64,000 nt of DNA from Acidimicrobiia bacterium (GTDB lineage Bacteria > Actinomycetota > Acidimicrobiia > Spongiisociales > ZC4RG35). The notes under the pieces are model-generated. The model saw only the letters and a program-made list of their open reading frames with translations, was not told the origin of the DNA and searched no databases. This document shows, in pieces, positions 8,330 to 58,674 of this stretch. Both the position numbers and the translations under genes were made by a program. Positions within the stretch are counted from its first letter, which is position 1. Each line of letters begins with the position of its first letter. Where the stretch lies: positions 683,361 through 747,360 of the forward strand of contig OZ244163.1 in NCBI GenBank assembly GCA_965216495.1, in the 5' to 3' direction.

Positions 8330-9331
8330 ATGGCTGAACACGCCATGGTCGACGTAGGCGGTGATGTGGTGAGGATCTCGTCACCCGACCGCGTCGTCTT
8401 CCCGGAGCAGGGCTGGACAAAGCTGGACGTGGTGGAGCATTTTGCACTCGTAGCCGAGGGTGCCGCCAGGGGGGTGTCCCGACGTCCGACGATGCTCAAG
8501 CGATACATGAAGGACGTCACGGTCGACCCGATCTATCACAAGAGGGCCTCGAAGAACACACCGTTCGAGACTGTTCAGATCAGATTCCCTTCTCAGCGTC
8601 CAGGAAGAATGAATGTGCCCATCACCGAGGCTGATGTCGTCCGGCTAGCCCAATTGGGTTGCCTCGACTTCCACCCTTGGCCGGTTCGTTACGAAGACAT
8701 CCACCATCCAGACGAACTTCGCTTCGACTTCGATCCGACTCCGGGTTTTGGGTTCGACAGGGTGAAGGAAGCGGTGGCGGGAGCCAAAGAACTTCTTGAT
8801 GAGGTTGACCTGGTGGGCTGGCCAAAGACCTCAGGTAGCAGGGGAATTCACGTCTACGTGCGCATCGAACCGATATGGGACTTCTTCCAGACGAGACGTG
8901 CGGTTCTTGCGTTCGCCCGCGAGTTGGAGCGTCGCATGGATGGGCTGGTGACCACCAAATGGTGGAAGGAAGAGCGTCGAGGGATCTTTGTAGATTACAA
9001 CCAGAACGCTCGCGACAAGACTGTGTCGTCGGCCTACGGAGTTCGGCCGACGGGGTTCGTATCCGCTCCATTCGCCTGGAATGAGTTGGCCGATATCGAA
9101 ATCGAGGACTTCCCATTGGGGGAATTTTCCGAGCGATGGAAAGACGTCGGCGATCTCACGGAAGGCATCGACGAAGCCGAGGGACGGATTGACACGTTGT
9201 TGGAGTGGGTGATTCGGGACGACGAGAACGGTGTGGGCGACGCTCCATGGCCACCGCACTATCCGAAGATGCCGGGTGAGCCTCCTCGTGTCCAGCCGTC
9301 AAAGCAGAGACGAGCCGACGACGAGTACTGA
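8330..9331 (+). CDS. Stand-alone primase-polymerase (LigD polymerase-domain-like, Prim-PolC-type)
   Basis: LRFDFDPTP (DxD metal site) and KTSGSRGIHVYVRI (K-x-SG-x-x-G-x-H signature of archaeo-eukaryotic primase-type LigD Pol domains) are both present. Confidence 0.8.
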   Translation: MAEHAMVDVGGDVVRISSPDRVVFPEQGWTKLDVVEHFALVAEGAARGVSRRPTMLKRYMKDVTVDPIYHKRASKNTPFETVQIRFPSQRPGRMNVPITEADVVRLAQLGCLDFHPWPVRYEDIHHPDELRFDFDPTPGFGFDRVKEAVAGAKELLDEVDLVGWPKTSGSRGIHVYVRIEPIWDFFQTRRAVLAFARELERRMDGLVTTKWWKEERRGIFVDYNQNARDKTVSSAYGVRPTGFVSAPFAWNELADIEIEDFPLGEFSERWKDVGDLTEGIDEAEGRIDTLLEWVIRDDENGVGDAPWPPHYPKMPGEPPRVQPSKQRRADDEY

Positions 9332-12901: not shown

Positions 12902-13924
12902 TTAGCCGTCCACCACCTCGCGAAAGCCTCGGCCTTCAGGCCGTTCCAGCTGATCCATGGTGCACTGGGTAGCGTCTTTGTCCGGGCGCCATCGGTGGAA
13001 TCGGGAGGCATGACGGAAGCGATCTCCCTCGAGTTGGTCGTAGCTGACTTCGACTACAACACCCTGCTGAACAGGGGTCCATGAGTTGTCCTTGCCAGCC
13101 GACCAACGGGAAGGTCCTCCAGGAGCGCGGGCAGCAGAGTCGAAGCTGTCCTCGGCCTTCAGCTCCATGAATCTTTCGAAGATCTCTACCCGGTCGGTGT
13201 TGGGGAACCCGGAGCAGTGCCCGATGAAGTGGAAGTCCCCCTTGTCGTTGTACAGGCCGAGTAGCAACGAGCCGATCTTGCCGCCGTCCTTGTGTTCCCT
13301 GAATCCTCCGACCACCACGTCGATTGTTCGCCGATGTTTGATCTTGATCATGGCCCGCTTGCCGTGCTGATAGGTCAGTTCGGGCTTCTTGGCGATAATG
13401 CCGTCGCAGCCCGCCGGCTCGAACTCGTGGAACCATGACTTGGCCTCGTCTTCGCTATCGGTCTGCGGCGTGAGGTGCCATGGGTGGCTAAGTGACTGTG
13501 CAAGAGCTACAAGCCGCGCCCTGCGCTCGGAGAAAGGATTCTCCCGAAGGTCCTCTCCGTCAATCGCCAGGAGATCGAACGCCACAAGTTCGGCCGGGGT
13601 TTCGCTGCTGAGGCGGGTGATCCTCGATTCGGCGGGGTGGATCCTCTGTTGCAGCGTGTCGAACGTGGTCACCCCATCGATCACGACAACGATCTCTCCA
13701 TCGACCACCGTGCCTCTCGGCAGTTGGTCCAGAGCCTGCTGCAGCTCTGGGAAGTAGCGCAACAGGGGACGCTGATTCCTCGAATCGATCCTCGCCTCGG
13801 GCCCCGACCAGGACAGCGAACGAAAGCCGTCCCACTTCGGTTCGTAGACGAACTCACCCTTCGGCCACTTCTCCGACACTCGAGCTTCCATTGTCTGGAC
13901 CGGTGCAACGAAGGGGTGGCTCAT
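12902..13924 (-). CDS. Stand-alone ATP-dependent DNA ligase (LigC/LigD-ligase-domain type)
   Basis: Motif I EPKWDGFR (adenylated Lys). Nucleotidyltransferase and OB-fold motifs are present; length is 340 aa. Confidence 0.85.
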   Translation of the reverse strand: MSHPFVAPVQTMEARVSEKWPKGEFVYEPKWDGFRSLSWSGPEARIDSRNQRPLLRYFPELQQALDQLPRGTVVDGEIVVVIDGVTTFDTLQQRIHPAESRITRLSSETPAELVAFDLLAIDGEDLRENPFSERRARLVALAQSLSHPWHLTPQTDSEDEAKSWFHEFEPAGCDGIIAKKPELTYQHGKRAMIKIKHRRTIDVVVGGFREHKDGGKIGSLLLGLYNDKGDFHFIGHCSGFPNTDRVEIFERFMELKAEDSFDSAARAPGGPSRWSAGKDNSWTPVQQGVVVEVSYDQLEGDRFRHASRFHRWRPDKDATQCTMDQLERPEGRGFREVVDG

Positions 13925-20741: not shown

Positions 20742-20771
20742 CGTGTTTGATCGCACCTAAGGAGGTCTTTG

Positions 20772-21410
20772 ATGTTTGGACGTAGAAAGCCAGAGATGCC
20801 GGCAACCGACGAGATGCTGCCGGGTCGCAGCCAGGCAGTGGAAGTGCCCGTGGCCCACTTCGTCAATGGCAATCCCTTGGTTGGGCCGTTTCCTGAAGGC
20901 ACCGAGGTCGCCGTCTTCGGGATGGGATGCTTCTGGGGCGCTGAGAGAAGGTTTTGGCAGCTCGACGGGGTTTACTCAACTTCGGCCGGATATGCCGGTG
21001 GAGCCACCCCCAATCCGACTTATGAAGAGGTGTGCTCCGGGGCCACCGGCCACGCCGAGGTGGTGATGGTCGTTTACGACCCGAATGTTGTGTCGTACGA
21101 CACCCTGCTCAAAGTTTTCTGGGAGACCCACGATCCGACTCAGGGTTATCGCCAGGGGAACGACATCGGCACCCAGTACCGGTCGACGATTTATACGACA
21201 ACCGACGGGCAGTTGGACCAGGCCAAGCGTTCCGCCGATATCTACCAGTCGGTTGTCTCGGCAGCCGGTTTCGGCGGAATCACGACCGAGATCGCTCCGC
21301 TGGGTGAGTACTACTACGCAGAGGACTACCACCAGCAGTATCTCGGCAAGAACCCTCACGGTTACGACTGCCATGCCAACACCGGCCTGGCGTATCCGGG
21401 GCTTAGCTGA
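20772..21410 (+). CDS. msrA: Peptide methionine-S-sulfoxide reductase
   Basis: GMGCFWGAE active-site motif. AGGAGG RBS 6-7 nt upstream of the ATG at 20772. Confidence 0.9.
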
Positions 21411-22768: not shown

Positions 22769-23203
22769 TCAATCAGTCAACGCCCAGTGAGCCTTCCAGT
22801 TCTCCGGTATGGCGATTCCCAGGCTATAGGCGAATCGAATGAGCTGACCCTGGTGCTGCGCCTCATGCTCATTGAGGCGGAGCACCATTCCGGTCTGGTA
22901 TTCCGTGAGTGACTCGGGTTCGAGTCGGTCCCAGTCGGCTCGAGTGGCAGCGAGCCTCTCAACGAGTACTTCGGGGGAGTGAGTCTCTGCGTCGTTGAGG
23001 GAGCAGGCGAAACCCTGCCACTTGCCGGCCCGCAAAGCCTCGAGATAGCTCTCCCGGCCACCAACGACGCACCAAAACTGACTTCCAATGGTGTTCGACC
23101 GTCCGGGAAGTTCTAAACGAAGTTCGTCGGCCGAAAGCGACCGGGCAAGGTCGTCGGTCAGGGTTGTCAGCGTTTTCGTTTGACGCATGACGATTTCGCT
23201 CAC
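22769..23203 (-). CDS. DinB/YfiT-like (DinB_2 superfamily) protein
   Basis: ...NEHEAQHQGQLIRF four-helix-bundle metal-binding pattern. Confidence 0.5.
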   Translation of the reverse strand: MSEIVMRQTKTLTTLTDDLARSLSADELRLELPGRSNTIGSQFWCVVGGRESYLEALRAGKWQGFACSLNDAETHSPEVLVERLAATRADWDRLEPESLTEYQTGMVLRLNEHEAQHQGQLIRFAYSLGIAIPENWKAHWALTD

Positions 23204-24591
23204 GAACTCACAGCCTCAACTAACTCTTCCGCCGTGAGGGCTCCTACCTCGAGTTCAACGTCGGGCACCACGCCTGTCCCACCGAAGTCAAGACCACCGG
23301 GAGTCAGCCAACGAGCGATGGTGAGCTTCAACGCACCGCCATTGGAGAGGCCGAACCTCTGTTGGACGGTGTTCTTGCCGAACGTGTTCTCGCCAACGAC
23401 TGTGATCCGTCCGTTCTCCTGAAGGGTGGCCGAGACCACCTCGGATGCCGAGGCTGAGCCTTTGTTGACGACGAATGTCACCGGCATATCTTCAGGCACA
23501 ACCACGGCGCCACTCACGGGATACCCAATCGATTCGTCAGGCCCTTGAGTCTTGACCACGTCACCTTCGGCCATAAACGCGGAAGCGACCTGAATCGCGG
23601 TGTCTAAGAATCCCCCCGGATTGTCCCTGAGGTCGATGACCAACTCACCGACTCCCTGCTGGAGAACCTCGCTGAGGGCTTCGACGAACTGATCTCCGGC
23701 GCTGGCGTTGAACGATCGCAACCTGACATATCCAATGTCACCAAAGACATCTTGCTCAATGACGGGTATGACGACTGCAGCGCGAGTGATGGTCACGTCG
23801 AAGAGGTCGCTCTCCCGGTCGATCGTGAGCACAACGTCGGTTCCAGCCGGGCCACGGACGGTGGCTGTGACCTCGTCTACGGTCCATCCCAAGATCGATT
23901 CGCCGTCGACTGCCACGATTGCGTCGTCGCGTTGCAGGCCGGCCTCTTCGGCGGGAGCCCCCGTGATCGGGGTGACAATGAGGATGCGGCAGGTCTCGGA
24001 GATGACACCGCATTGCTTGTTGTCTCCCGGAAGCGTCTCATCTTCCGGAGAAACCAGAGCCCCGATGCCTTCGATCTGTCCCTGCTGTTCTTCCTGAAGG
24101 AGTTCCAGAGCCCGAGGATCCAGGTACCCAGAGTTGGGGTCGAGTGCGAATGCAGACAAGCTGGCCACGATCGTCTCTGCAGCCTCCGCTGTGCTGTCCG
24201 CTTCGATGGCGGCCAGGTTGCAGGTTTCTCCGAACTCCGGTGTGGGGATGGCACACACCAGCAGGTCGTCGCTGTCTGCCCCGTCCAATAGTGCCAGCCC
24301 TTCGAGGGCTGCCTCTGCCAGCACAGCGTCTTCAATCGGGTCGACGTACCGATCTTTGATGAGGTCGTAGGCTTCACAGACGATGGCGGCTTCGTCGGGT
24401 GCCCGGTCGCACTCAACGATTCCTACCTCGCGCCCCTCGATGGTCGAGGTTGGAATGGGGGCCGTGGTGCCCGGAGACTCACTAGTCGTTGTTGTGCTCG
24501 GGTTGGTCGGGTTCGAGAACGGGGATCCCGTACATGCGCTGGCGATGAGGGCCAGGGCCGTTATGGCCGATATGAATGTCGTTTTCTTCAA
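23200..24591 (-). CDS. S41 family C-terminal processing peptidase, lipoprotein
   Basis: Lipobox LIASAC, T/S/P-rich linker, PDZ region, and catalytic ...LRDNPGGFLD... / ...GSASASEV... The stop/start overlap with the next gene is ATGA. Confidence 0.8.
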   Translation of the reverse strand: MKKTTFISAITALALIASACTGSPFSNPTNPSTTTTSESPGTTAPIPTSTIEGREVGIVECDRAPDEAAIVCEAYDLIKDRYVDPIEDAVLAEAALEGLALLDGADSDDLLVCAIPTPEFGETCNLAAIEADSTAEAAETIVASLSAFALDPNSGYLDPRALELLQEEQQGQIEGIGALVSPEDETLPGDNKQCGVISETCRILIVTPITGAPAEEAGLQRDDAIVAVDGESILGWTVDEVTATVRGPAGTDVVLTIDRESDLFDVTITRAAVVIPVIEQDVFGDIGYVRLRSFNASAGDQFVEALSEVLQQGVGELVIDLRDNPGGFLDTAIQVASAFMAEGDVVKTQGPDESIGYPVSGAVVVPEDMPVTFVVNKGSASASEVVSATLQENGRITVVGENTFGKNTVQQRFGLSNGGALKLTIARWLTPGGLDFGGTGVVPDVELEVGALTAEELVEAVSS

Positions 24592-25973
24592 GATGATGCT
24601 TCCAGCGCGAGGTTGACGATCTCTTCGATCGATGCGTCTGCCGGCCAGTCCAGTTGGACGTCCGGGCTGAGGCCGTCGCCCTCCGCCGTTTCTCCGGCCG
24701 GGGATGACCAGCGCGCCACGACCACATAGAACTCGCCGTCGTTTCGAAGCCTGAAGGGTATCTGTACAGCGTCTTTACCGAACGTGTTTGTCCCTACCAC
24801 GACAGCGTTTCGGCGATCTCGAAGCGCACCGGTCAGAATCTCGGCAGCCGAAGCCGTCCCATTATCGACAAGGACGACCAGTCGGCTGGAAGTGCCAGGA
24901 CCCCCGGGCTGGGCTGTGTAGTCCCGGTCGTCGTTGGGCGATTCGGTGATCAGAACGGTACCGCCCGAGATGAAAAGGTCGGATACCGAAACGACGGCAT
25001 CTACGAAGCCTCCCGGGTTTCCTCTGAGGTCAACCACCAACGTGTTCGGTGAGCCCAGTTGAGCCAAGCCTTCTGAAACAAGAGTTGGGATATCCCAGTC
25101 GAAGTCAGGAATACGGATGTAGCCAACGCCTGACCGGACCGTAAGAGTCTCAACGGTCGGAAAGACCAGGGGAGCGCGCTCGATCTCGAACTCGACGATC
25201 TCGCCGGACCGCTCAACCGTCAGTCCAACCAAACCGGACTCATCACCAGCGATCAAACCCACGACGGTTGAGAATCCTTGACCATCGACAGGTACGCCAT
25301 CGACCTCGGTTATCAGATCGCCGCTCCTGAGGCCGGCTCTGAAGCCAGGGTTGTCTTCGAGAACAGTCACCACTTCGAGGACGCACGCACCGCCGAGTCG
25401 GGCGCATTTCGATCCGACTGGGTCTCGTGAGTCCAACAGAACCCCAACTCCTCCCACGACTCCGTTGGCCCGAAAGGCGTCTCGTTGCTCAGGTGACACG
25501 TAATAGGTGAAAGGGCCCAGCCCAACGTCCACCATGTGGGCCATTGATGCTTCGACCGCGTCCTCGAGAGGGACATTGCGGATCACCAAGGCTTCTCCCA
25601 GGGCCTCGCAGTACGGCAAGAATGCATTGTCCGGAATGGCGCAAGTCAGAGCGCGCGGCGGATCAGCCGACTCATCAGGTTCAAATCGGTCGAGACCCTC
25701 AATAGCAAGATCGGCCAGGACAGCTGGGTCAAGAGGTCGGTCGACATGCCATTCCTCGAGCAACTCCCACATCTCGCAAAGAGGGACGAACATCACGGGA
25801 GGCGTGACACAGTTCTGGACGACCATTGGCTGGGTGGGGGTCGTGGTAGTCACCAGAATCGTTGCGCGGGTGGTGTCGACACTGGCTGCCGTCGTAGTGG
25901 TGGGTTCCGCAGCACCCCCGCAGGCCGAAACCATCAGTCCGACCGCCAAAACAATCCAGCGCATTGAAATCAT
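24588..25973 (-). CDS. S41 family C-terminal processing peptidase, lipoprotein (paralog of the adjacent gene)
   Basis: Lipobox LMVSAC and LRGNPGGFVD...GTASAAEI. Start is the ATG at 25973 (MISMRWIVLAVG). Confidence 0.8.
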   Translation of the reverse strand: MISMRWIVLAVGLMVSACGGAAEPTTTTAASVDTTRATILVTTTTPTQPMVVQNCVTPPVMFVPLCEMWELLEEWHVDRPLDPAVLADLAIEGLDRFEPDESADPPRALTCAIPDNAFLPYCEALGEALVIRNVPLEDAVEASMAHMVDVGLGPFTYYVSPEQRDAFRANGVVGGVGVLLDSRDPVGSKCARLGGACVLEVVTVLEDNPGFRAGLRSGDLITEVDGVPVDGQGFSTVVGLIAGDESGLVGLTVERSGEIVEFEIERAPLVFPTVETLTVRSGVGYIRIPDFDWDIPTLVSEGLAQLGSPNTLVVDLRGNPGGFVDAVVSVSDLFISGGTVLITESPNDDRDYTAQPGGPGTSSRLVVLVDNGTASAAEILTGALRDRRNAVVVGTNTFGKDAVQIPFRLRNDGEFYVVVARWSSPAGETAEGDGLSPDVQLDWPADASIEEIVNLALEASS

Positions 25974-26006
25974 TATGAAGCTGGATCGGCCGTTAGCGTC
26001 TCCTTC

Positions 26007-27074
26007 GTGAGAACTCGTGTCCATCTCCGTTCGCCCGACGGCGAATCAGTCGTGCGCGATGTCGTAGGCGAATACTGGTCCGAGGGGTCGAGTGCCATCC
26101 CTGATACAGAGCTGGGTAAAGGGCTGTATGCCTTGCCGGGATTGATCGATGCCCACGCCCATCTAGCTACATCGGAACTCAATTGGCAGCCGGGTGTGTT
26201 TGAGGAGGCGGTGGACCGAGCGCGGGCCTCACTCCGCGCCGGAGTGACGCTCGTTCTGGACAAGGGTTGGCGGGACGCCACGACCATCCGGGTCATCGAC
26301 GAGCTAGCGCCACATGAAAGACCAGACATAGAGGCGGCGGCGCAGATCATCGCTTCACCGGGTGGGTACTACCCGGACTTCGGATACGAAGTCGAAGAGG
26401 GCCGGTTGACCCAGGCAGTGCTCCAAAAGTCACAGGAGGGCCGAGGTTGGGTCAAGCTCGTCGGGGACTGGCCACGCAAGGGTGTTGGGCCGAAGGCCAA
26501 CTTCAGCCTGGAGGCGATGAAGTCGGCAGTCCGAGCGGCCCATGACTCAGGGTCGAGAGTGGCCATTCACACGATGGCCCCTGAGGTGCCCTCTGCTGCG
26601 GTGGAAGCCGGGATCGACTCGATTGAGCATGGGCTTTTCATGACCGAGGCCGACGTGGAGACTCTTGCCGAGCGGCGGGGCATGTGGGTTCCGACCGTCC
26701 TCAGAGCCGAGGCGGTGCTGGCACAACTGGGTGCCGAATCGTCGGGAGGACGGTTGTTCGTGCAAGGACTCGAGAACGTGCGCCGTCTGCTGCCGTTGGC
26801 AGCCGAGGCGGGAGTGGAGGTTCTGGCTGGCACAGATCTCGTTGGTTCACCGGTTGACGTGGCAGCGGAGGCGATAGCGCTGTCTCGCTTTGGTTTGTCT
26901 AACAGCCAGATCCTGCGCGCCGTTTCGAGCGGAGGTTTCCTTGCTACTGGACGACCCGCTCGGTTTGAGGTGGGTGCTCCCGCTGACGCAGTCTTCTTCG
27001 CCGATAACCCGTTGGGCGATCTCGACGTGTTGGCACATCCCGTGGCGGTAATGAGGCTGGGAAGGGTCGTGTGA
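26007..27074 (+). CDS. Amidohydrolase-family metal-dependent hydrolase
   Basis: GLIDAHAHL metal-binding motif and ...HTMAP...DSIEHG... GTG start. Confidence 0.7.
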   Translation: MRTRVHLRSPDGESVVRDVVGEYWSEGSSAIPDTELGKGLYALPGLIDAHAHLATSELNWQPGVFEEAVDRARASLRAGVTLVLDKGWRDATTIRVIDELAPHERPDIEAAAQIIASPGGYYPDFGYEVEEGRLTQAVLQKSQEGRGWVKLVGDWPRKGVGPKANFSLEAMKSAVRAAHDSGSRVAIHTMAPEVPSAAVEAGIDSIEHGLFMTEADVETLAERRGMWVPTVLRAEAVLAQLGAESSGGRLFVQGLENVRRLLPLAAEAGVEVLAGTDLVGSPVDVAAEAIALSRFGLSNSQILRAVSSGGFLATGRPARFEVGAPADAVFFADNPLGDLDVLAHPVAVMRLGRVV

Positions 27075-52552: not shown

Positions 52553-53826
52553 GGAGTCGGCTGCGTTGGATGAGCCTGGCGACGACATCCCTGGTCGTCG
52601 TCTCCCTCATCGTTCCTCTCGCCCTCCTCGTGCGCCGTCAGGCCGAGGAAGGTGCCGTGTCCGACGCGGAGTTGCGTGCCTCTTCGATGGCGTCGCTTAC
52701 CGCGCTCGCAATGGCGGTCGACCCAGCTCCCGACTCGGTGCGCAATGCACTCGGGCCGCTACCGGCGGGGACCATTGTGGCGCTGCCTGACGGCCAGACC
52801 CTCGGCACAGCGTTCTCTGCCCAACCGAGCCTCGCCGAGAGGGCGGCTACCGACGCGGCCACTCTTTCGGAGATGGTTCAAGGCGGATGGGAGGTGGCGA
52901 TACCCGTGGTGGCCAGGAGTGGTGTTGCTGTTGTCGACGTATTTGTGCCTATCGAAGACCTACGAAGCGGTGTGTCGGGAGCTTGGAGTCTTCTTGCATT
53001 GCTGGGAGTCGGATTGATTGCGGCTGCAGCTGTGGTTGCCGAAGCCCTCGCTCGACAGTTAGCGCGTCCGATGGCCACGGTTGCCGGGTCGGCGCGGCGA
53101 TTGGCCGAAGGAGACCTGGACGCTCGCGTCGAGGTCGACGGTCCCGGAGAAATTCGTGACGTTGCCGCTGCTTTCAACTATCTGGCCAGACGTCTCAACG
53201 AATTGCTAGCGGAGGAAAGGGAGTCGATGGCCGATCTGTCACACCGACTGCGAACGCCCTTGACTTCGCTACGTCTCCAGGCCGACTCTCTGAACTCCGT
53301 CGATGAAAGACAGGAGATGCTTGTTCAGGTGGATCGTTTGGAGGGTGCCGTCAGTGAGCTGATCGAAACTGCCCGGTCTCCCGGAGCGCGCGAGGCATCT
53401 TCCGTCGTCTTGGATGAAGTGGTCCGCTCAAGAGCGGCGTTTTGGAAGGTTCTTGCCGACGAGCAAGACCGTGCGATGGAGATCTCGGTCGGAAGCGGTG
53501 GCGCATCGGTAGGGCTCAACCAGCCTGACTTGGCCTCTCTGATAGACGTCCTCGTCGAGAATGTCTTCAGTCATACCGAACCGGGCACCGGCTTGGGTGT
53601 GAGAACGGGTGTGAGTGGCCGGGGTGTCTATCTCGAGGTGGTTGACGATGGTCCGGGGATTCCGGCATCTGTGATCCAGCGTGGAGTCAGCGGCGGGGGT
53701 TCAACGGGTCTCGGACTGGATATTGCTCGACGACTGGTGGTCTCGGCTGGAGGAACGTTGGACACGGACGACCGCCAGGGAGGGGGAGCGATCGTCCGTG
53801 CAACCTTTGGGGAATCAGTCGTCTGA
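52549..53826 (+). CDS. Two-component sensor histidine kinase
   Basis: Two TM segments flank an external domain, followed by HAMP, the H-box (...MADLSHRLRTPLTSL...) and the ATPase G-boxes (GTGLGL). The start overlaps the response-regulator stop. Confidence 0.85.
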   Translation: MRSRLRWMSLATTSLVVVSLIVPLALLVRRQAEEGAVSDAELRASSMASLTALAMAVDPAPDSVRNALGPLPAGTIVALPDGQTLGTAFSAQPSLAERAATDAATLSEMVQGGWEVAIPVVARSGVAVVDVFVPIEDLRSGVSGAWSLLALLGVGLIAAAAVVAEALARQLARPMATVAGSARRLAEGDLDARVEVDGPGEIRDVAAAFNYLARRLNELLAEERESMADLSHRLRTPLTSLRLQADSLNSVDERQEMLVQVDRLEGAVSELIETARSPGAREASSVVLDEVVRSRAAFWKVLADEQDRAMEISVGSGGASVGLNQPDLASLIDVLVENVFSHTEPGTGLGVRTGVSGRGVYLEVVDDGPGIPASVIQRGVSGGGSTGLGLDIARRLVVSAGGTLDTDDRQGGGAIVRATFGESVV

Positions 53827-54456
53827 GTCGTCGTCCTCGTCGTCTGAGTCGTCGTCCTCGTCGTCCTCGTCGTCTGAGTCGTCGTCCTCGTCGTCCTCGT
53901 CGTCTGAGTCGTCGTCCTCCTCGTCCTCGTCGTCTGAGTCGTCGTCCTCATGGTCCACTTCGATCTCGATCGACACGGCGCCGTGTTCGAACTCGGCTTC
54001 GAATTCGACCTCGGTGTCGCCTCGTGACCATTCCAGCTCGATCTTGTCGGGTTCAAGCTCCTGACTGTCGAGGTCCCACCCTGGAGCGGAGAAGTCGACG
54101 AGAACCAGGCGGCCGTTGCTGACTTCGATAGTCACCGACCCCACACCGGGCACTTCGCAGGTCCGCGGGCCGAAGTCTTCCACTGGATCGTCGTCCATGC
54201 TGGTCGAGGTGGTGGACTCGATGGTTGTAGACGTGGTTTCGCCCTCGGTCGTCGATGTCGTGTCTTCAACAGTTGTCGAGGTGGTGTCGTCGTCAATCGT
54301 CGAAGTGGTTGCCTCCGATGTCGAAGTGGTGTCCTCGATGGTCGACGAGGTGCTGACCGAAGGTGAATGATCCTCGGACGCCCAAGCGACTCCGACGAGG
54401 AGTAGCGCCACTGTGAGAGCGGTCAACAGTCCGATGGTTTTGCTGAACATGGCCAT
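53815..54456 (-). CDS. Secreted protein with S/T-rich linker, PepSY-like domain and poly-acidic (DDDSDDEDDE)n C-terminal tail (paralog B)
   Basis: Signal/TM (LLTALTVALLLVGVAWA), a T/S/E/D-rich linker, and the domain ...KIELEWSRGDTEVEFEAEFEHGAVSIEIEV paralogous to 51224-51775. A ~43-residue acidic repeat tail follows. The 3' end overlaps the histidine-kinase gene convergently by 12 bp. Confidence 0.6.
   Translation of the reverse strand: MAMFSKTIGLLTALTVALLLVGVAWASEDHSPSVSTSSTIEDTTSTSEATTSTIDDDTTSTTVEDTTSTTEGETTSTTIESTTSTSMDDDPVEDFGPRTCEVPGVGSVTIEVSNGRLVLVDFSAPGWDLDSQELEPDKIELEWSRGDTEVEFEAEFEHGAVSIEIEVDHEDDDSDDEDEEDDDSDDEDDEDDDSDDEDDEDDDSDDEDDDSDD
53822..53950. repeat. Tandem ~36-bp coding repeat (gtcgtctgagtcgtcgtcctcgtcgtcctc)n
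   Basis: About 3.5 near-identical units encoding DDDSDDEDDEDD on the minus strand. The plus-strand poly-Ser ORF over it is an antisense artefact. Confidence 0.8.
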
Positions 54457-54531: not shown

Positions 54532-55191
54532 TCAACGTGCGGGATGGTCCCAGGAGTCCTCTGGGCGACCGGTATCGACAGTCCATCGAGGGAGGAAGAA
54601 CTGGACGATTGGCCCAATCAGAAGCGCGAAACCGATTGTTCCGATCCCGAACGTTCCCCCGAGAAGGATGCCGATCACCAATACGACAACCTCCATGACC
54701 CATCGGGTCAGACGAATCGAAGGTCCTCTTCGCGCGATTGCGGTCATCAGGCCGTCGCGCGGCCCCGGACCCAAGTTGGCGCCGATGTATAGGCCCGACG
54801 CGATACCCACTAGGAGAATGGCGACTCCAGACATCGCGATCTGGCCGACGGTTGTCGCCGGCTTGGAAACAACGGCCGAGGTGATGTCGATGAACGCCCC
54901 AATCAAAATGGCGTTGAGCAAGGTGCCGATGCCGTAGCGCTCACGGAATGGAATCCAGAGAAGGAGGATGACGAAGGAGAGGAGGATCGACCAGACCCCC
55001 ACCGTCAGGCCGAACTGCCGGGTGAGTCCCTCCCCGAGCACATCCCACGGCGGCAACCCCTGCCCCGATTCGAGCATCAACCCGATGCCGATTCCGAAAA
55101 GGATCACCCCTACGAGAAGTTGTGCCAGTCTCCGATTCCGGTTCAGGCCGGATACCGGGATGAAACTTATCAACGGCCTTTCACTCGTCAT
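54532..55191 (-). CDS. YitT/DUF161-like integral membrane protein
   Basis: 219 aa and polytopic, with ...GIGIGLMLESGQGLPPWDVL... like the YitT/YczE family. Confidence 0.55.
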   Translation of the reverse strand: MTSERPLISFIPVSGLNRNRRLAQLLVGVILFGIGIGLMLESGQGLPPWDVLGEGLTRQFGLTVGVWSILLSFVILLLWIPFRERYGIGTLLNAILIGAFIDITSAVVSKPATTVGQIAMSGVAILLVGIASGLYIGANLGPGPRDGLMTAIARRGPSIRLTRWVMEVVVLVIGILLGGTFGIGTIGFALLIGPIVQFFLPRWTVDTGRPEDSWDHPAR

Positions 55192-55235
55192 CGGCGAGGG
55201 ACGGTAACAATGGAACCAAACGTCAAGGAGCCAGA

Positions 55236-55919
55236 TTGACCACAGACTTCACCATCAAGGACCACGCCGGCAACGATTGGACGCTTTCGGAGTACTTTGA
55301 CGCTGCAGCAGTGATCATTTTTCACCGAGGCGACTTCTGAACGTACTGTCACGGCCAGTTGGCCGTCATGGCAGAACGTCATCAGGAATTCCTGGATGCA
55401 GGGGCTCGCGTGTTCAGTGTTTCGGTAGACACACCCGAGATGAACGCCGCGGTAGTCGAGAAGCTCTCCCTTCCGTTCCCCTTGCTTTCCGATCCGAGCA
55501 GGGAGGAAGCCATCACTCCGCTCGGCTTCGCAGACGAAAAGGATCCACGCCTGATTTCTCTGCCCGGCACGGTGATCTTTGCGCCAGGTGGTGCTCGGGT
55601 CTTCTCCACCACGGGCAGCGATTTCGCCGATCGACCCCACGAGGACGACCTTCTCGAAGAGGTCAGGAAGCTGGAGTTGCCACCGACCTCGCAAGCAGCT
55701 CCAGAGCGTGGCAAACCCGAACCTGGGCCGAAGGCCGTCCCTTTCGAAGCTCTGAAGCGCTATATGAGCGGCGCCAAGTTCGCGGTTCTGGTCATGAGAC
55801 GGCGCCACCGTGAGCTGGGCGAGGAGTTCAGGGATGACGCCAAGAGGTACGTTCAGATGCTGGAGCGTTACCTTTTTGCTCTAGAGGCGGTTGAAGGGCG
55901 ACGATCAAGGAGAACATGA
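55236..55919 (+). CDS. Peroxiredoxin/redoxin-fold (AhpC-TSA/Bcp-like) protein with in-frame TGA at the redox motif (UxxC): candidate selenoprotein, or alternatively a nonsense-disrupted CxxC gene
   Basis: AAGGAG RBS (55225-55230) with a 5-nt spacer before the TTG at 55236. N-terminal ...TTDFTIKDHAGNDWTLSEYFDAAAVIIFHRGDF-[TGA 55338-55340]-TYCHGQLAVMAERHQEF... fits the Prx thioredoxin fold. There are no other stops through 55919. Without read-through, a conventional ORF runs 55359/55368-55919 and lacks the active site. Confidence 0.55.
55351..55366 (+). other. SECIS-like stem-loop 11 nt downstream of the in-frame TGA
   Basis: ACGGCC-AGUU-GGCCGU has a 6-bp GC stem and a GU-containing apical loop. 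Its position (loop ~17-22 nt after UGA) matches bacterial SECIS geometry. Confidence 0.4.
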
Positions 55920-56638
55920 CGGCTCGGACCCAGCTTTTCGTTACGTGCCTGGTGGACGTTCTCAGGCCGGGGGTCGGCAAGGCCACCACCAAGGTCTTGG
56001 AGTCCGCTGGGTGCGCCGTGGAGTTCCCCCGTGATCAAGGTTGTTGTGGTCAGCCGGCGTTCAACGTGGGTATGTGGGACGAGGCCCGCACCATGGCAGC
56101 GCAAACTCTGGACGTTCTTGACGAGACCGAAGGTGACATCGTGCTTCCTTCCGGCTCCTGCGCCGCCATGATGGTTGCCCACTACCCGACCCTGTTTGCG
56201 GGATCCGAGCGAGAGGAGCAGGTATCTCGGGTAACGAGCCGGGTCTACGAACTAACGCAGTATCTCGTCGATGTGCTGGACGCGCCCGTCCATGCCGACT
56301 GTGAAGGATGCGATGTCGCCTATCACTACTCCTGTCACGGTTTGCGTTCTCTCGGCCTCAAGGACCAGGCGGATTCTCTCCTCGAGCCGGTGCAGCGCGC
56401 CGAGCTTGCCGAAGACGACGTGTGCTGTGGGTTCGGCGGCGTCTTCTCCGTGGAGATGCCCGCCGTGTCGGCGGCGATTCTCGAGCGAAAGCTGGACAAC
56501 ATCGTCGATTCAGGGGCCACCGTTGTCGTTGGAGGTGACGTCTCTTGCCTCGTTCACATCGAGGGCGGTTTACGACGACGGGACGCCGAGATCGAAGTCC
56601 AGCACATAAGTGAGATATTGGTCAGCGACGATGGCTGA
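55916..56638 (+). CDS. lutA: L-lactate utilization protein LutA (Fe-S oxidoreductase, CCG-domain)
   Basis: MTARTQLFVTCLVD...CCGQP...CCGFGG cysteine-rich CCG motifs. The start overlaps the Prx-like stop (ATGA). Confidence 0.85.
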   Translation: MTARTQLFVTCLVDVLRPGVGKATTKVLESAGCAVEFPRDQGCCGQPAFNVGMWDEARTMAAQTLDVLDETEGDIVLPSGSCAAMMVAHYPTLFAGSEREEQVSRVTSRVYELTQYLVDVLDAPVHADCEGCDVAYHYSCHGLRSLGLKDQADSLLEPVQRAELAEDDVCCGFGGVFSVEMPAVSAAILERKLDNIVDSGATVVVGGDVSCLVHIEGGLRRRDAEIEVQHISEILVSDDG

Positions 56639-58031
56639 TCCTGTCAGGTTTCTCTCTAGGGCAGAGGCGCTGATCGGTACCAGCGAGGCGAGTGCCGTGT
56701 CACACGGCGCCTTGACCCTCTTCGACAAGAGGAACCGAGCCGTCGCCGAGTTTCCACTCATGGAAGAGATGCGTGACCGCACGCGCGCCATTCGTCTTGA
56801 CGCCTTGCGACACCTCGATCGTCATCTGGCTTCATTCGCCGACAATCTCACGGCTGCGGGCGGTCAGGTCCATTGGGCTGCTGACGCCGCCGAGGCTCGG
56901 TCGATAGTGGCCGAGATTCTCGATGCTGCTCAGGCTCGAACCGTCGTGAAGTCGAAGTCGATGGTTTCAGAGGAAATCGAACTCAACCCTGCGCTTTTGA
57001 AAGCGGGTAAAGAGGTCGTAGAGACCGACCTAGGCGAGTTCATCGTTCAACTCGCAAATGACACGCCGTCCCACATCATCGCACCCGTTCTCCACAAGAC
57101 GGCGGCCGACGTCGGACGGCTCTTCGAAGAGAAGTTGGATGTTCCTTTCACCGACGATCCGTTCGAGCTCAATCGGATTGCTCGACGGCATCTGAGGGAG
57201 ATATTCCTCCGTGCCGATGCCGGTATCTCAGGAGTCAACCTGGCAGTTGCCGACTCCGGTTCGGTGGTCTTGGTCACGAACGAAGGGAACGGAAGGCTGA
57301 CGACCTCGGCTCCTCGCGTTCACATCGCACTAATGGGCATGGAGCGAATCGTGCCTACGTGGTCGGATGCCGCCGTTGTGCTCGAGACCCTTGCGCGGTC
57401 GGCGACCGGCCAACGGCTCTCGGTGTACACCAACGTGGTCACCGGTCCGCGGCGCTCCGACGAAGCGGATGGACCCGAGGAAGTTCACGTCGTGATCATC
57501 GACAATGGCCGGTCCGACGTCCTGGCTTCTGCCACTGCAGAGATCCTTGCGTGCATTCGATGTGGCGCTTGTCTCAACGCTTGTCCTGTCTTCCGCTCAG
57601 CCGGAGGGCACGCCTACGGCACCGTTTACTCCGGTCCCGTGGGCTCGGTGCTGACTCCGGGCCTGCTGGGTAGGGATCCTTGGTGGGATCTGCCGTACGC
57701 CTCGACGCTTTGTGGTGCCTGCGAGGAGGTCTGCCCTGTTCGGATCCAGATTCCGGACATGCTGCTCGAACTACGCCGACAGGCGGCGGCGGAAGGTCGT
57801 CTGCCTGCCTGGCTAGATAGAGGCTTACGCAGGTACGCCTCCACGGTGACCAAGCCGAGCAGCTGGGCTCGAGCAAAGCGATGGTCCCGACGTCTGGGAT
57901 GGCTGATGTCAAAGGACGGATGGATCGGACGCTTGCCGGGGCCCGGCCGGGGATGGTCAGAATCTCGGGATTTCCCGGAGCCTGCGTCAGAATCGTTTGC
58001 CGACTGGTGGGAGGCACATCGTGAAACGTGA
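56630..58031 (+). CDS. lutB: L-lactate utilization protein LutB (4Fe-4S cluster-binding, LUD domain)
   Basis: CIRCGACLNACPV and CGACEEVCPV ferredoxin motifs plus a LUD/DUF162 region. The ATG at 56630 overlaps the lutA stop. Confidence 0.85.
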
Positions 58032-58674
58032 AGCCTTCCTCAGCGCGGTGTCGCGATCGAGCATGGCTAGTCGGCTCCCACAGGCGAAGACGATGAGTGA
58101 CGAGTTGCCCGACTATCACACAGACGACCTGGTGACCCTCTTCCGAGTCAATGCTCAGGCAGTGAACGCCGTGGTCCACGGTCCTGTGAGCAGGCACGGG
58201 GTGCCACGGTCTGTCCTTGCCATTGCAGGAGGGCACCAGGTCAAGACCTTCATGTCGTGGGACGACCTGCCTGCCGCCGGTGTGAACGCAAGCCTTGTGG
58301 CGGAGGGTTACCGAAGGGTGGACCACGAGGTCCCGAACGACCGGCGGAGCGAACACAACCTGGCATATGCCGAACTCGACATGGGGGTTACCGGCGCCGA
58401 TGCCGGTCTGGCCCAGAGTGGGAGCGTGGTTCTGCTCCATGGGCCGGGACGGCAGCGAATGGCGTCACTCATCCCCGAGATCCACGTCGCGATTCTCGAC
58501 GTCGAGTTGCTTGCCATGACCCTTGCCCATTGGTCGGCCGTCAATCCCGACGCCTTGGCGGGTACGTCGAATCTGGCAATTGTGACTGGCCCCAGTCGGA
58601 CTGGTGACATCGAACAACAATTGAACCTTGGTGTTCATGGGCCGCGACACGTGCATATCGTGTTGTCGAAATGA
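58021..58674 (+). CDS. lutC: L-lactate utilization protein LutC (LUD domain)
   Basis: The GTG at 58021 overlaps the lutB stop. LutC-like pattern, ~217 aa. Confidence 0.75.
   Translation: MKREAFLSAVSRSSMASRLPQAKTMSDELPDYHTDDLVTLFRVNAQAVNAVVHGPVSRHGVPRSVLAIAGGHQVKTFMSWDDLPAAGVNASLVAEGYRRVDHEVPNDRRSEHNLAYAELDMGVTGADAGLAQSGSVVLLHGPGRQRMASLIPEIHVAILDVELLAMTLAHWSAVNPDALAGTSNLAIVTGPSRTGDIEQQLNLGVHGPRHVHIVLSK

What the first reader, a model, noticed from the sequence alone, without database searches (positions are those of the whole stretch)
55164..55919. Candidate selenocysteine (UxxC) peroxiredoxin/redoxin gene heading the lutABC operon, with a SECIS-like hairpin
1. The ORF that a gene caller would report (55359/55368-55919) encodes only the C-terminal two-thirds of an AhpC-TSA/Bcp-like thioredoxin fold and lacks any redox motif.
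2. The same frame stays open upstream to 55164 and encodes the missing N-terminus: ...DFTIKDHAGNDWTLSEYFDAAAVIIFHRGDF-*-TYCHGQLAVMAE..., aligning with the Bcp ...VLVYFYPKDFTPGCT... region.
3. The only stop is a TGA at 55338-55340. It lies exactly inside the redox motif, giving U-T-Y-C, the UxxC arrangement seen in SelU/PRXL2-type and other Trx-fold selenoproteins.
4. A TTG at 55236 has a perfect AAGGAG (55225-55230) 5 nt upstream, so translation initiation upstream of the TGA is well supported.
5. Eleven nt after the TGA lies a GC-rich hairpin ACGGCC-AGUU-GGCCGU (55351-55366). Its apical loop contains GU, and this distance and geometry are what a bacterial SECIS requires. The immediate post-UGA sequence ...CACGGCC... 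echoes E. coli fdhF.
6. The gene's stop overlaps the lutA start (ATGA), so it is co-translated with lactate oxidation genes.

The alternative is that TGC/TGT mutated to TGA (one substitution from Cys), making it a pseudogene of a CxxC redoxin. Either way, standard annotation would be wrong here.
Basis: partly seen in the sequence, partly recalled or inferred. Interest (0 to 1): 0.85.

Follow-up and report, generated by a model that had tools for sequence, protein, structure and literature searches.

The report
Mis-annotated selenocysteine redoxin heading lutABC
The "stop" codon at 55338-55340 almost certainly encodes selenocysteine in the active site of a thioredoxin-fold redox protein that sits first in a lactate-oxidation operon; databases list only a truncated version, but this type of selenoprotein is already known.

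Summary
A 227-codon frame (55236-55919) encodes a complete AhpC/TSA-type thioredoxin fold. It is interrupted once, by TGA at 55338-55340, giving GDF-U-TYC.

- **Conservation of the TGA:** All 52 evaluable species-level genome loci (almost all Acidimicrobiia MAGs) and 65 of 79 metagenome loci carry TGA at this codon. 12 distant homologues carry TGC/TGT and 2 carry TCC.
- **The N-terminus is translated:** The 34 upstream codons are conserved as protein with free synonymous change. A start codon at codon -34 is seen in 33 of 34 lut-linked orthologues.
- **Hairpin:** Codons +4 to +9 are frozen at synonymous sites (normalised entropy 0.07 against 0.71 elsewhere, p about 1e-5). They form a hairpin that meets all four criteria of the published bacterial SECIS consensus. 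There is no compensatory covariation within a subfamily.
- **Operon link:** The window's subfamily always directly precedes lutA-lutB-lutC.

The pseudogene alternative is excluded. Sec-insertion machinery could not be checked, because only the window and short flanks were reachable.

This is a new, universally truncated member of the known "Prx-like UxxC" selenoprotein kind. Its own features are a C-terminal helical hairpin and a strict lut-operon link. Interest is moderate.

The parts
55225..55230 (+). Shine-Dalgarno sequence AAGGAG, 5 nt upstream of the start codon
   Evidence: Read. A purine-rich GGAG/AGGA motif sits at the same distance before codon -34 in most subfamily A orthologues.
55236..55919 (+). 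Full coding sequence of the selenoprotein: 227 codons plus stop, with a TTG start. It comprises an AhpC/TSA-type thioredoxin fold (residues about 3-150) and a C-terminal helical hairpin (about 170-225).
   Evidence: Pfam AhpC-TSA scores 3e-22 over residues 3-118. A start codon lies at codon -34 in 33 of 34 orthologues. The AF2 model of the full-length Cys homologue has pLDDT 97.3, against 70 for the truncated ORF.
55338..55340 (+). UGA codon read as selenocysteine (residue U35 of the U-T-Y-C motif)
   Evidence: TGA is present in 52 of 52 evaluable genome loci and 65 of 79 metagenome loci. Distant homologues have Cys (12) or Ser (2) at this codon.
55347..55349 (+). TGT codon for Cys38, the partner of U35. 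It aligns with the peroxidatic Cys of peroxiredoxins.
   Evidence: phmmer alignment to Aeropyrum pernix Bcp 2cx3: F-S-P-V-C against F-U-T-Y-C.
55341..55379 (+). SECIS-like stem-loop inside the coding sequence. The core is ACGGCC[AGUU]GGCCGU (55351-55366). An outer helix UGUC/GGCA (55347-55350 with 55370-55373) follows a 3-nt bulge. In this genome there is a further ACGU/ACGU extension.
   Evidence: MFE is -21.6 kcal/mol with z = -4.0; the core is -10 and the core plus outer helix -12.4 kcal/mol. Across 34 orthologues 95.9% of cells are paired. Codons +4 to +9 are frozen at synonymous sites.
55357..55360 (+). Apical loop AGUU, with GU at positions 2-3, beginning 16 nt after the UGA
   Evidence: Invariant in 34 of 34 subfamily A sequences. 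It fits the bSECIS rule of 'G in the first two loop positions, followed by G or U' (PMC13188914).
55368..55919 (+). The truncated ORF found in public databases, starting at an internal ATG inside the SECIS hairpin. This is an annotation artefact.
   Evidence: P0001 (183 aa, 99% identical) and all 120 listed homologues, most starting at the equivalent Met, lack the N-terminus.
55916..56638 (+). lutA (two CCG motifs). Its ATG overlaps the redoxin stop codon (ATGA).
   Evidence: Pfam CCG on the 95%-identical orthologue. lutA is present immediately downstream in every subfamily A locus with enough sequence.
56631..58031 (+). lutB (LUD domain plus 4Fe-4S ferredoxin-type domain)
   Evidence: Annotation of the near-identical contig L060. 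Synteny holds in all subfamily A loci.
58021..58674 (+). lutC (LUD domain)
54532..55191 (-). Divergently transcribed DUF6198 membrane protein, a conserved neighbour
   Evidence: Pfam DUF6198 on orthologues. tblastn finds it 120-350 nt upstream in nearly all subfamily A loci.

Best explanation
Window 55236-55919 is one gene for a 227-residue selenoprotein. The points below mark what is shown and what is inferred.

**Shown**
- Translation starts at TTG 55236.
- The frame continues through UGA 55338-55340.
- That codon is strictly conserved as TGA, and it replaces the first Cys of a CxxC motif found in distant homologues.
- The following codons carry an RNA-level constraint and form a hairpin of bacterial-SECIS geometry.
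- The gene is the first cistron of the lutABC L-lactate oxidation operon in every member of its subfamily.

**Inferred from the established bacterial mechanism**
- SelB-GTP-Sec-tRNA(Sec) binds the hairpin while the ribosome sits on the UGA, and inserts selenocysteine.

**Inferred from fold and motif**
- The product has a peroxiredoxin/ResA-like thioredoxin fold.
- U35 sits at the N-cap of helix alpha1, the nucleophile position of a Trx-type CxxC. C38 is its resolving partner. Together they cycle through a selenenylsulfide.
- The protein is therefore a thiol:disulfide-type oxidoreductase, not a canonical PxxxTxxC peroxidase. A family-specific C-terminal helical hairpin follows the fold.

**Guess**
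- The protein serves LutABC, either as a redox partner of the CCG-domain subunit LutA or as local protection of its Fe-S and cysteine centres.
For: **1. TGA is conserved.** 52 of 52 evaluable species-level loci carry it, at 40-67% protein identity. So do 65 of 79 metagenome loci.

**2. A Sec/Cys pair exists.** Full-length homologues of 211-260 aa carry RGDW-C-x-Y-C-NGQL and the same C-terminal extension.

**3. The N-terminus is translated.** Codons -31 to -1 keep their amino acids while their codons vary. For example, Gly -23 is conserved in 33 of 34 sequences with all four codons in use. A start codon lies at codon -34 in 33 of 34 subfamily A loci, mostly preceded by a Shine-Dalgarno-like motif.

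**4. There is an RNA-level constraint.**
- Subfamily A codons +4 to +7 (CAC GGC CAG TTG) are invariant in every sequence that keeps the amino acid. Codons +8 and +9 (GCC GTC) are nearly so.
- Gly is GGC in 34 of 34 sequences, against entropy 1.89 at other invariant Gly columns. Leu is TTG in 34 of 34, although TTG is only 16% of Leu codons in the window.
- Normalised synonymous entropy is 0.07 inside this stretch against 0.71 outside (p about 1e-5). Subfamily B gives 0.15 against 0.68.
- Cys-form homologues are relaxed at the same codons: Gln is CAA 4 / CAG 5, against CAG 54 of 55 in Sec forms.

**5. The hairpin meets all four published bSECIS constraints** (PMC13188914).
- Apical loop of 4 nt.
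- Upper stem of 6 bp, plus 4 bp in an outer helix.
- Loop sequence A-G-U-U.
- Spacing of 16 nt and energy of -10 to -12.4 kcal/mol. For the window, z = -4.0.

**6. Other Sec subfamilies use different hairpin sequences at the same place.** All have G-U in the loop (GGUC, GUC/GUG, CGUG, AGUUG). The Ser codon (AGC or UCG) tracks the hairpin register. GGUC is also the E. coli fdhF apical loop, which lies 18 nt after the UGA.

**7. TGA is otherwise an ordinary stop here.** It ends 21 of 30 long ORFs, including this gene. A genome-wide reassignment is therefore excluded.

**8. The full-length protein folds well.** The AF2 model has pLDDT 97.3, with the CxxC at a helix N-cap. The closest structures are Bcp4, AhpE, BcpB and ResA.

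**9. The class can use Sec.** Sec machinery is documented in another order of the same class, Actinomarinales (preprint 10.64898/2026.04.03.716425).
Against: - **No Sec machinery was seen.** No tRNA-Sec, selA, selB or selD was found in the 64-kb window or in about 1.2 Mb of fetched loci. These are only syntenic flanks, so the machinery in this genome remains untested.
- **No covariation.** There are no compensatory base-pair changes within a subfamily, because the stems are invariant. The structure rests on synonymous-site freezing, thermodynamics and fit to the consensus.
- **No Rfam match**. Rfam models represent bacterial SECIS elements poorly (preprint read).
- **The subfamily B hairpin is weaker and ambiguous in single sequences.** It folds at -7.3 kcal/mol, and alternative folds exist.
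- **One Cys-form homologue (L062) also has a strong hairpin at this place**. A hairpin alone is therefore not diagnostic.
- **The function is pure inference.** Both the thiol:disulfide oxidoreductase activity and the link to LutABC are unproven.
Confidence: 0.9

Rival explanations
1. Pseudogene: a CxxC redoxin whose first Cys codon (TGC/TGT) mutated to TGA, so nothing functional is made from the upstream part.
For: TGA is one substitution away from TGC/TGT. Cys-form homologues exist.
Against: TGA is kept in 52 of 52 species-level loci and in 65 metagenome loci, across 40-67% protein divergence. The upstream codons are under purifying selection, with a conserved start. There are no frameshifts or further stops.
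Confidence: 0.01
2. UGA is a genuine stop. The locus makes a 34-residue peptide, plus a separately initiated 183-186-aa protein from the internal ATG/TTG, as annotated in databases. The two perhaps reassemble as a split fold.
For: A Met codon (+10) follows in 26 of 34 subfamily A sequences. Gene callers choose it.
Against: - The split would fall exactly at the catalytic residue, where homologues have Cys.
- The internal ATG lies inside a stable hairpin, and Met +10 is absent in 8 of 34 subfamily A sequences and in subfamily B.
- The truncated ORF lacks beta1, beta2 and the redox motif, and it models poorly: pLDDT 70 against 97 for the full length, although the alignment depths differ.
- This reading does not explain the synonymous freeze in the shape of a SECIS.
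Confidence: 0.03
3. UGA is recoded by something other than the Sec machinery. One possibility is hairpin-stimulated read-through, with a near-cognate tRNA inserting Trp, Cys or Arg.
For: The Sec machinery was not observed. Downstream structures can stimulate read-through in some systems (general knowledge).
Against: - The codon sits at the nucleophilic position of a CxxC motif, where only Cys or Sec works. Cys would be encoded far more efficiently by TGC, as it is in the Cys forms.
- The loop sequence and the spacing match the SelB-binding consensus.
- Sec use is documented in the same class.
Confidence: 0.05
4. The protein is a conventional peroxidase (a peroxiredoxin), with Cys38 as the peroxidatic residue and Sec35 as the resolving or auxiliary residue. 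It would detoxify peroxide made during lactate oxidation, and would not be a thiol:disulfide oxidoreductase.
For: Pfam AhpC-TSA is the best family. The closest structures are Bcp4, AhpE and BcpB. Cys38 aligns with the peroxidatic Cys.
Against: The Pro and Thr of the Prx PxxxTxxC signature are replaced (R-G-D-F-U-x-x-C). The residue aligned near the catalytic Arg is not invariant, and is Leu in the window. Scores lie far below the cut-offs of PrxU, PrxQ, Bcp and AhpC in NCBIfam. ResA-type CxxC oxidoreductases match the fold as well.
Confidence: 0.2

Closest known systems
Prx-like thiol:disulfide oxidoreductase selenoproteins ('Prx-like 1', Pfam PF00578, UxxC motif), predicted in bacterial genomes and in the Sargasso Sea and GOS metagenomes (PMC1088965, PMC2398784, PMC13188914)
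   Same: - Same Pfam family.
- Same thioredoxin-like UxxC motif in place of the Prx TxxC/TxxU.
- A bacterial SECIS lies directly downstream of the UGA.
- Cys-containing homologues exist.
- The gene is truncated by standard annotation.
   Different: - It carries a conserved C-terminal helical hairpin of about 60 residues that no solved Prx or ResA structure matches.
- It is found almost only in Acidimicrobiia.
- The window's subfamily is exclusively Sec and is strictly the first gene of lutABC. No paper in the searched library links Sec to LutA and LutB.
- Direct sequence comparison with the family's reference protein (WP_010940744.1) was not possible.
SelL-related redox protein (NCBIfam NF040769) and eukaryotic SelL
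   Same: It is the best NCBIfam match (E = 1.3e-10 over residues 4-90). It also has a Prx-like fold with a Sec-containing CxxC-type motif.
   Different: The score is 41 bits against a cut-off of 120, so the protein is not a member. SelL has UxxU, whereas this protein has UxxC.
Eukaryotic SelU / PRXL2 family (PRX_like2; UxxC or CxxC)
   Same: A peroxiredoxin-like thioredoxin fold that carries UxxC at the helix N-cap.
   Different: No detectable specific sequence relationship was tested or found here. Sec insertion in that family is eukaryotic, through a 3'-UTR SECIS.
Sec-containing peroxiredoxin PrxU (TxxU; Eubacterium acidaminophilum; NCBIfam NF040737)
   Same: An AhpC/TSA fold that contains Sec.
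   Different: In PrxU, Sec replaces the peroxidatic Cys (TxxU). Here Sec replaces the Thr position and the Cys is kept (UxxC). The score is 32.6 bits against a cut-off of 270.
E. coli fdhF SECIS element
   Same: A stem-loop inside the coding region just after the UGA. It has a 4-nt apical loop with G-U, 18 nt after the UGA in fdhF. The spacing here is 16 nt, and 20 nt in subfamily B, whose loop GGUC is identical to that of fdhF.
   Different: The stem sequence differs. No bulged U equivalent was identified. SelB binding has not been tested.

Membership tests
Bacterial SECIS element (consensus model, PMC13188914 Fig. 2) | Apical loop of 3-9 nt on an upper stem of 4-16 bp | tested here: met
   The loop is AGUU (4 nt). 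The stem ACGGCC/GGCCGU is 6 bp, with a 4-bp outer helix.
Bacterial SECIS element (consensus model, PMC13188914 Fig. 2) | At least one G in the first two loop positions, usually followed by G or U | tested here: met
   The loop is A-G-U-U and is invariant in 34 of 34 subfamily A sequences. Other subfamilies have GGUC, GUC/GUG, CGUG or AGUUG.
Bacterial SECIS element (consensus model, PMC13188914 Fig. 2) | [quoted passage not shown] | tested here: met
   The spacing is 16 nt (55341-55356), the lower limit of the range. It is 20 nt in subfamily B.
Bacterial SECIS element (consensus model, PMC13188914 Fig. 2) | Minimum free energy of -7.5 kcal/mol or lower | tested here: met
   The core is -10.0, the core plus outer helix -12.4, and the 48-nt context -21.6 kcal/mol. 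Subfamily B is borderline at -7.3.
Bacterial SECIS element | Binding by SelB and dependence of read-through on the hairpin | not testable with these tools
   This needs a reporter assay or a binding assay.
Bona fide bacterial selenoprotein gene (criteria of Zhang & Gladyshev, PMC1088965) | [quoted passage not shown] | tested here: met
   52 of 52 genome loci and 65 metagenome loci carry it. The flanks RGD[FW]-U-xYC-[HN]GQL are conserved.
Bona fide bacterial selenoprotein gene (criteria of Zhang & Gladyshev, PMC1088965) | Cys-containing homologues aligned to the TGA | tested here: met
   There are about 40 clusters of full-length CxxC forms. 12 metagenome loci have TGC or TGT at the codon.
Bona fide bacterial selenoprotein gene | [quoted passage not shown] | not testable with these tools
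   Nothing was found in the window or in 1.2 Mb of flanking loci. The rest of the genome could not be fetched. The machinery is documented in another Acidimicrobiia order.
Pfam AhpC-TSA (PF00578) | Score above the gathering threshold (26 bits) | tested here: met
   79.3 bits, E = 3e-22, covering profile positions 6-118 of 124 for the read-through product.
Catalytic peroxiredoxin | PxxxTxxC active-site signature (Pro, Thr and the peroxidatic Cys) | tested here: not met
   The sequence is R-G-D-F-U-T-Y-C. Pro is replaced by Arg and Thr by Sec, and only the Cys is kept.
NCBIfam NF040769 SelL-related redox protein | Score above the curated cut-off (120 bits) | tested here: not met
   41.2 bits.
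NCBIfam NF040737 PrxU (Sec-peroxiredoxin) | Score above the curated cut-off (270 bits) and a TxxU motif | tested here: not met
   32.6 bits, and the motif is UxxC.
Prx-like thiol:disulfide oxidoreductase selenoprotein ('Prx-like 1') | PF00578 domain with a thioredoxin-like UxxC motif in place of TxxC/TxxU | tested here: met
   The family definition is taken from PMC1088965, PMC2398784 and PMC13188914.
Prx-like thiol:disulfide oxidoreductase selenoprotein ('Prx-like 1') | Thiol:disulfide oxidoreductase activity | not testable with these tools
   The activity has not been shown biochemically for the family either; the family is listed as 'predicted with high confidence'.

The most novel reading that the evidence does not exclude
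The selenoprotein could be the dedicated redox partner of LutABC. The CCG-domain subunit LutA is related to the heterodisulfide-reducing HdrB. It would pass electrons from lactate oxidation to the U35-C38 selenenylsulfide, and the C-terminal helical hairpin would act as the docking module. Lactate oxidation in these Acidimicrobiia would then be coupled to a thiol or peroxide reduction pathway. This would name a physiological electron acceptor for a LutABC-type enzyme, which to my knowledge has not been established.
Probability: 0.12. Interest if true: 0.7.

Novelty: new member of a known kind. Interest (0 to 1): 0.45.

Why it matters
**Annotation.** Every public copy of this gene is truncated at the Sec codon: 128 clusters in one search, named 'hypothetical protein' or 'AhpC/TSA family'. 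The active site of a lineage-wide Acidimicrobiia protein is therefore missing from the databases.

**Biology.**
- The gene adds a strictly Sec-dependent protein to a widespread soil, sediment and marine actinobacterial class. It implies that these organisms need selenium and carry the Sec machinery.
- Its obligatory position in front of lutABC is a concrete and testable clue to how LutABC-type lactate oxidases, whose redox partner is unknown, are serviced or coupled.

**Methods.** The locus shows that freezing of synonymous sites can validate a bacterial SECIS when the stems are too conserved to show covariation.

Tried and rejected
- **Rfam.** A gathering-threshold search of the whole window and an E<=10 search of 55200-55480 gave no match.
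- **tRNA-Sec.** ARAGORN found none in the window, in 55 loci, or later in all 143 loci.
- **sel gene motifs.** Motif scans for SelD, SelA and SelB-type GTPase in six frames of 0.93 and then 1.2 Mb gave nothing.
- **Pfam on long ORFs.** Pfam searches of 20 long ORFs in the un-annotated part of the window found no sel genes.
- **Reaching the rest of the genome.** Three look-ups of window proteins were not on record. The contig of more than 1 Mb that carries a window protein could not be read.
- **Full-length query.** The truncated-ORF profile was used instead.
- **Covariation.** There are no compensatory pairs within subfamilies.
- **Other selenoprotein genes in the window.** TGA-split ORF screens gave only off-frame noise. 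MsrA at 20769-21410 is the Cys form.
- **Odd tRNA call.** An ARAGORN 'tRNA-???' in L026 was considered as a possible mis-called tRNA-Sec. It lies in coding sequence and has no Rfam tRNA match, so it was rejected.
- **afdb50 fold search.** The library was unavailable.
- **Genomic context of relatives.** The context of subfamily B and of the Cys forms shows no lut genes and no informative neighbours.
- **Promoter and terminator scan.** Nothing exceeded the shuffled expectation.
Full report
**The observation.**
- The frame is open from 55164 to 55919 and contains one in-frame stop, TGA at 55338-55340, in the context FHRGDF*TYCHGQLAVMAE.
- AAGGAG (55225-55230) precedes TTG 55236 by 5 nt.
- ACGGCC-AGTT-GGCCGT occupies 55351-55366.
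- The gene's TGA stop overlaps the lutA ATG at 55916-55919.
- One small correction: ten nucleotides, not eleven, separate the TGA from the stem.
- The ORF a gene caller reports (from 55359 or 55368) matches only positions 47-118 of Pfam AhpC-TSA (9e-10). The 227-residue read-through product matches positions 6-118 (3e-22).

**Are the TGA and the upstream part real?**
- A search of 5.8 billion proteins returned 128 homologues. All 120 listed are 151-194 aa and cover at most 81% of the query, so every database entry is cut at the same place.
- The DNA explains why. In 54 species-representative genome loci, almost all Acidimicrobiia MAGs, 52 reach the codon and all 52 have TGA. The other two are cut by contig ends.
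- The loci fall into two subfamilies.
  - Subfamily A has 34 distinct sequences with the motif RGDF-U-[TS]YC-HGQLAV. The window belongs here.
  - Subfamily B has 20 distinct sequences with the motif RGDW-U-[PA]YC-NGQLVS.
- Upstream of the TGA the amino acids are conserved while the codons vary freely. For example, Gly -23 is conserved in 33 of 34 sequences using all four codons, and Leu -18 in 33 of 34 using five codons.
- A start codon lies at exactly codon -34 in 33 of 34 subfamily A loci, usually behind a GGAG/AGGA motif. The N-terminal 34 codons are therefore translated and are under protein-level selection.
- TGA is otherwise the normal stop in this genome: it ends 21 of 30 long ORFs, including this gene. 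A global reassignment is excluded.

**Sec/Cys pair.**
- A profile search of 1.84 billion cluster representatives, followed by a further word-index search, found full-length relatives of 211-260 aa. They carry RGDW-C-x-Y-C-NGQL and the same C-terminal extension, and sources name them 'peroxiredoxin family protein'.
- A metagenome scan seeded with these Cys forms returned 79 loci with the motif. 65 have TGA, 12 have TGC or TGT and 2 have TCC (Ser) at the codon.
- The TGA therefore aligns with the first Cys of a CxxC motif. This is the standard criterion for a selenoprotein gene (PMC1088965).

**The hairpin.**
- In subfamily A, codons +4 to +7 (CAC GGC CAG TTG) are invariant in every sequence that keeps the amino acid, and codons +8 and +9 (GCC GTC) are nearly so. 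Other invariant Gly columns use all four codons, and TTG is a minority Leu codon (16%) in the window.
- Normalised synonymous entropy is 0.07 inside +4 to +9 against 0.71 outside (permutation p about 1e-5). Subfamily B gives 0.15 against 0.68.
- Cys-form homologues are relaxed at the same codons: Gln is CAA 4 / CAG 5, against CAG 54 of 55 in the Sec forms.
- The frozen bases form ACGGCC[AGUU]GGCCGU (-10 kcal/mol). With the outer UGYC/GGCR helix this becomes -12.4 kcal/mol. In the window a further extension gives -21.6 kcal/mol, z = -4.0.
- The published bacterial SECIS consensus has four constraints: a loop of 3-9 nt on a stem of 4-16 bp, G in the first two loop positions followed by G or U, 16-37 nt from the UGA to the loop, and an energy of -7.5 kcal/mol or lower (PMC13188914). 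All four are met.
- Other Sec subfamilies place different hairpins at the same site.
  - GCCAGCU[GGUC]AGC-N-UGGC
  - GGCCAGCUC[GUC/GUG]GAGCUGGC
  - AGCU[CGUG]AGCU
  - ACGGGC[AGUUG]GCC-U-CGU
  - The Ser codon (AGC or UCG) follows the register of the hairpin.
- GGUC is also the apical loop of the E. coli fdhF SECIS. I checked that sequence against 5,419 E. coli genomes and folded it. The loop lies 18 nt after the UGA.

**Caveats on the hairpin.**
- Within a subfamily the stems are invariant. The pair counts show 96-98% pairing but no compensatory changes.
- The subfamily B hairpin is weak and is not the unique fold of single sequences.
- Rfam has no match.
- One Cys form (L062) keeps a strong hairpin of the 'VELA' type. 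This may be a fossil SECIS.

**The protein.**
- The best PDB sequence match is Aeropyrum pernix Bcp (2cx3). There F-S-P-V-C aligns with F-U-T-Y-C. Sec therefore occupies the Thr/Ser position of the Prx TxxC signature, and Cys38 occupies the peroxidatic position. The Prx Pro is Arg here.
- NCBIfam places the protein nearest 'SelL-related redox protein', but far below the cut-off (41 against 120 bits). It is also far below the cut-offs of PrxU, PrxQ, Bcp and AhpC.
- An AlphaFold model of a full-length Cys homologue is very confident (pLDDT 97.3). It shows a Prx/ResA-like thioredoxin fold with the CxxC at the N-cap of helix 38-49, followed by a C-terminal helical hairpin (residues 170-216).
- Foldseek aligns about 150 columns to Bcp4, AhpE, BcpB and ResA. 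None of these covers the hairpin.
- The truncated window ORF models poorly (pLDDT 70), although its alignment was shallower.
- I infer a UxxC thiol:disulfide-type oxidoreductase that cycles through a selenenylsulfide. A peroxidase role is not excluded.

**Genomic context.**
- All subfamily A loci with enough sequence have lutA (CCG domains), lutB and lutC immediately downstream, then an alpha/beta hydrolase.
- Nearly all of them also have a divergent DUF6198 membrane protein upstream.
- Subfamily B and the Cys forms are not linked to lut genes.
- The Sec form is therefore the first cistron of the lactate-oxidation operon throughout one Acidimicrobiia clade.
- No paper in the searched library links selenocysteine with LutA and LutB.

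**What could not be done.**
- No tRNA-Sec, selA, selB or selD is present in the window or in 1.2 Mb of fetched loci. These loci are syntenic flanks, and the rest of the genome was out of reach.
- A 2026 preprint reports selA, selB, selC and selD in all 84 complete genomes of Actinomarinales, another order of the class. Sec use in Acidimicrobiia therefore has a precedent.

**Comparison with what is known, and verdict.**
- PF00578 proteins with UxxC ('Prx-like protein', 'Prx-like 1', 'Prx-like thiol:disulfide oxidoreductase') are long-recognised predicted bacterial selenoproteins.
- The present gene meets that family's defining features. It fails the tests for a catalytic peroxiredoxin, for PrxU and for NF040769.
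- It is a new member of a known kind. Its own features are the C-terminal helical hairpin, an exclusively Sec subfamily, and the strict lut-operon link.
The pseudogene alternative is excluded.
- Interest is moderate (0.45). The mechanism is textbook, but the gene is mis-annotated everywhere, and its operon position offers a testable handle on the redox partner of LutABC.

Noticed in passing
L036-L059 (subfamily B) and L064-L143 (metagenome loci): The wider family holds several further Sec subfamilies that are not linked to lut genes. Examples are RGDW-U-PYC-NGQLVSLA, ...QLASYAR, ...QLVSYAR and ...QLVELAR. Each has its own hairpin sequence after the UGA. Among the 79 best metagenome loci retrieved with a Cys-form profile, 65 have TGA, 12 have Cys and 2 have Ser (TCC; L127 and L143).
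   Followed up: partly
L062 6001-6642 (Cys-form homologue P0179, ENA contig_27939): This Cys-form gene (ADW-C-PYC-NGQLVELA) keeps the same strong hairpin, GGCCAGCUC[GUG]GAGCUGGC, that the Sec-containing 'QLVELA' forms have after their UGA. It may be a fossil SECIS left by a recent Sec-to-Cys replacement.
   Followed up: partly
window 53815-54456 (-), overlapping ORFs 53628-54064: The upstream neighbour encodes a probable secreted protein. It has an N-terminal signal-like segment, Thr/Ser-rich repeats (TTSTxxE) and a long acidic D/E/S tail (DDSDDEDDEDDD...). It has no Pfam match, and low-complexity repeats create long spurious ORFs on both strands.
   Followed up: no
record titles (L009, L010, L021, L024, L027): Several MAGs labelled Acidobacteria, Gammaproteobacteria, Boseongicola or Gemmatimonadetes carry the same syntenic block (DUF6198, redoxin, lutABC) as the Acidimicrobiia MAGs, at about 60% identity. 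These contigs are probably mis-binned, or the MAGs are mislabelled.
   Followed up: no
L026 17783-17878: ARAGORN called a 96-nt 'tRNA-???' with a four-base anticodon (cctc), 7.8 kb downstream of the selenoprotein gene. It lies inside apparent coding sequence and has no Rfam tRNA match, so it is a false positive and not a tRNA-Sec.
   Followed up: yes
window 25688-64000 vs ENA ERZ25072999 contig ctg315986_46x_l: The right-hand 38 kb of the window is collinear with one end of a 131.7-kb long-read metagenome contig. Protein identities are 91-100%, with the redoxin at 99%. One window protein is also recorded on a contig of more than 1 Mb that could not be read. A near-complete genome of this organism therefore probably exists in public data.
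   Followed up: partly
window 8330-9331 (+) and 12902-13924 (-): A LigD primase-polymerase domain protein and an ATP-dependent DNA ligase, both non-homologous end-joining components, lie 3.5 kb apart with an ABC-transporter pair between them. Two tandem S41 (C-terminal processing) peptidase paralogues lie at 23200-26024 (-).
   Followed up: no
window 20769-21410 (+): Methionine sulfoxide reductase A is present in its Cys form (GMGCFWGAE). This family has Sec forms in some bacteria, but not here.
   Followed up: yes
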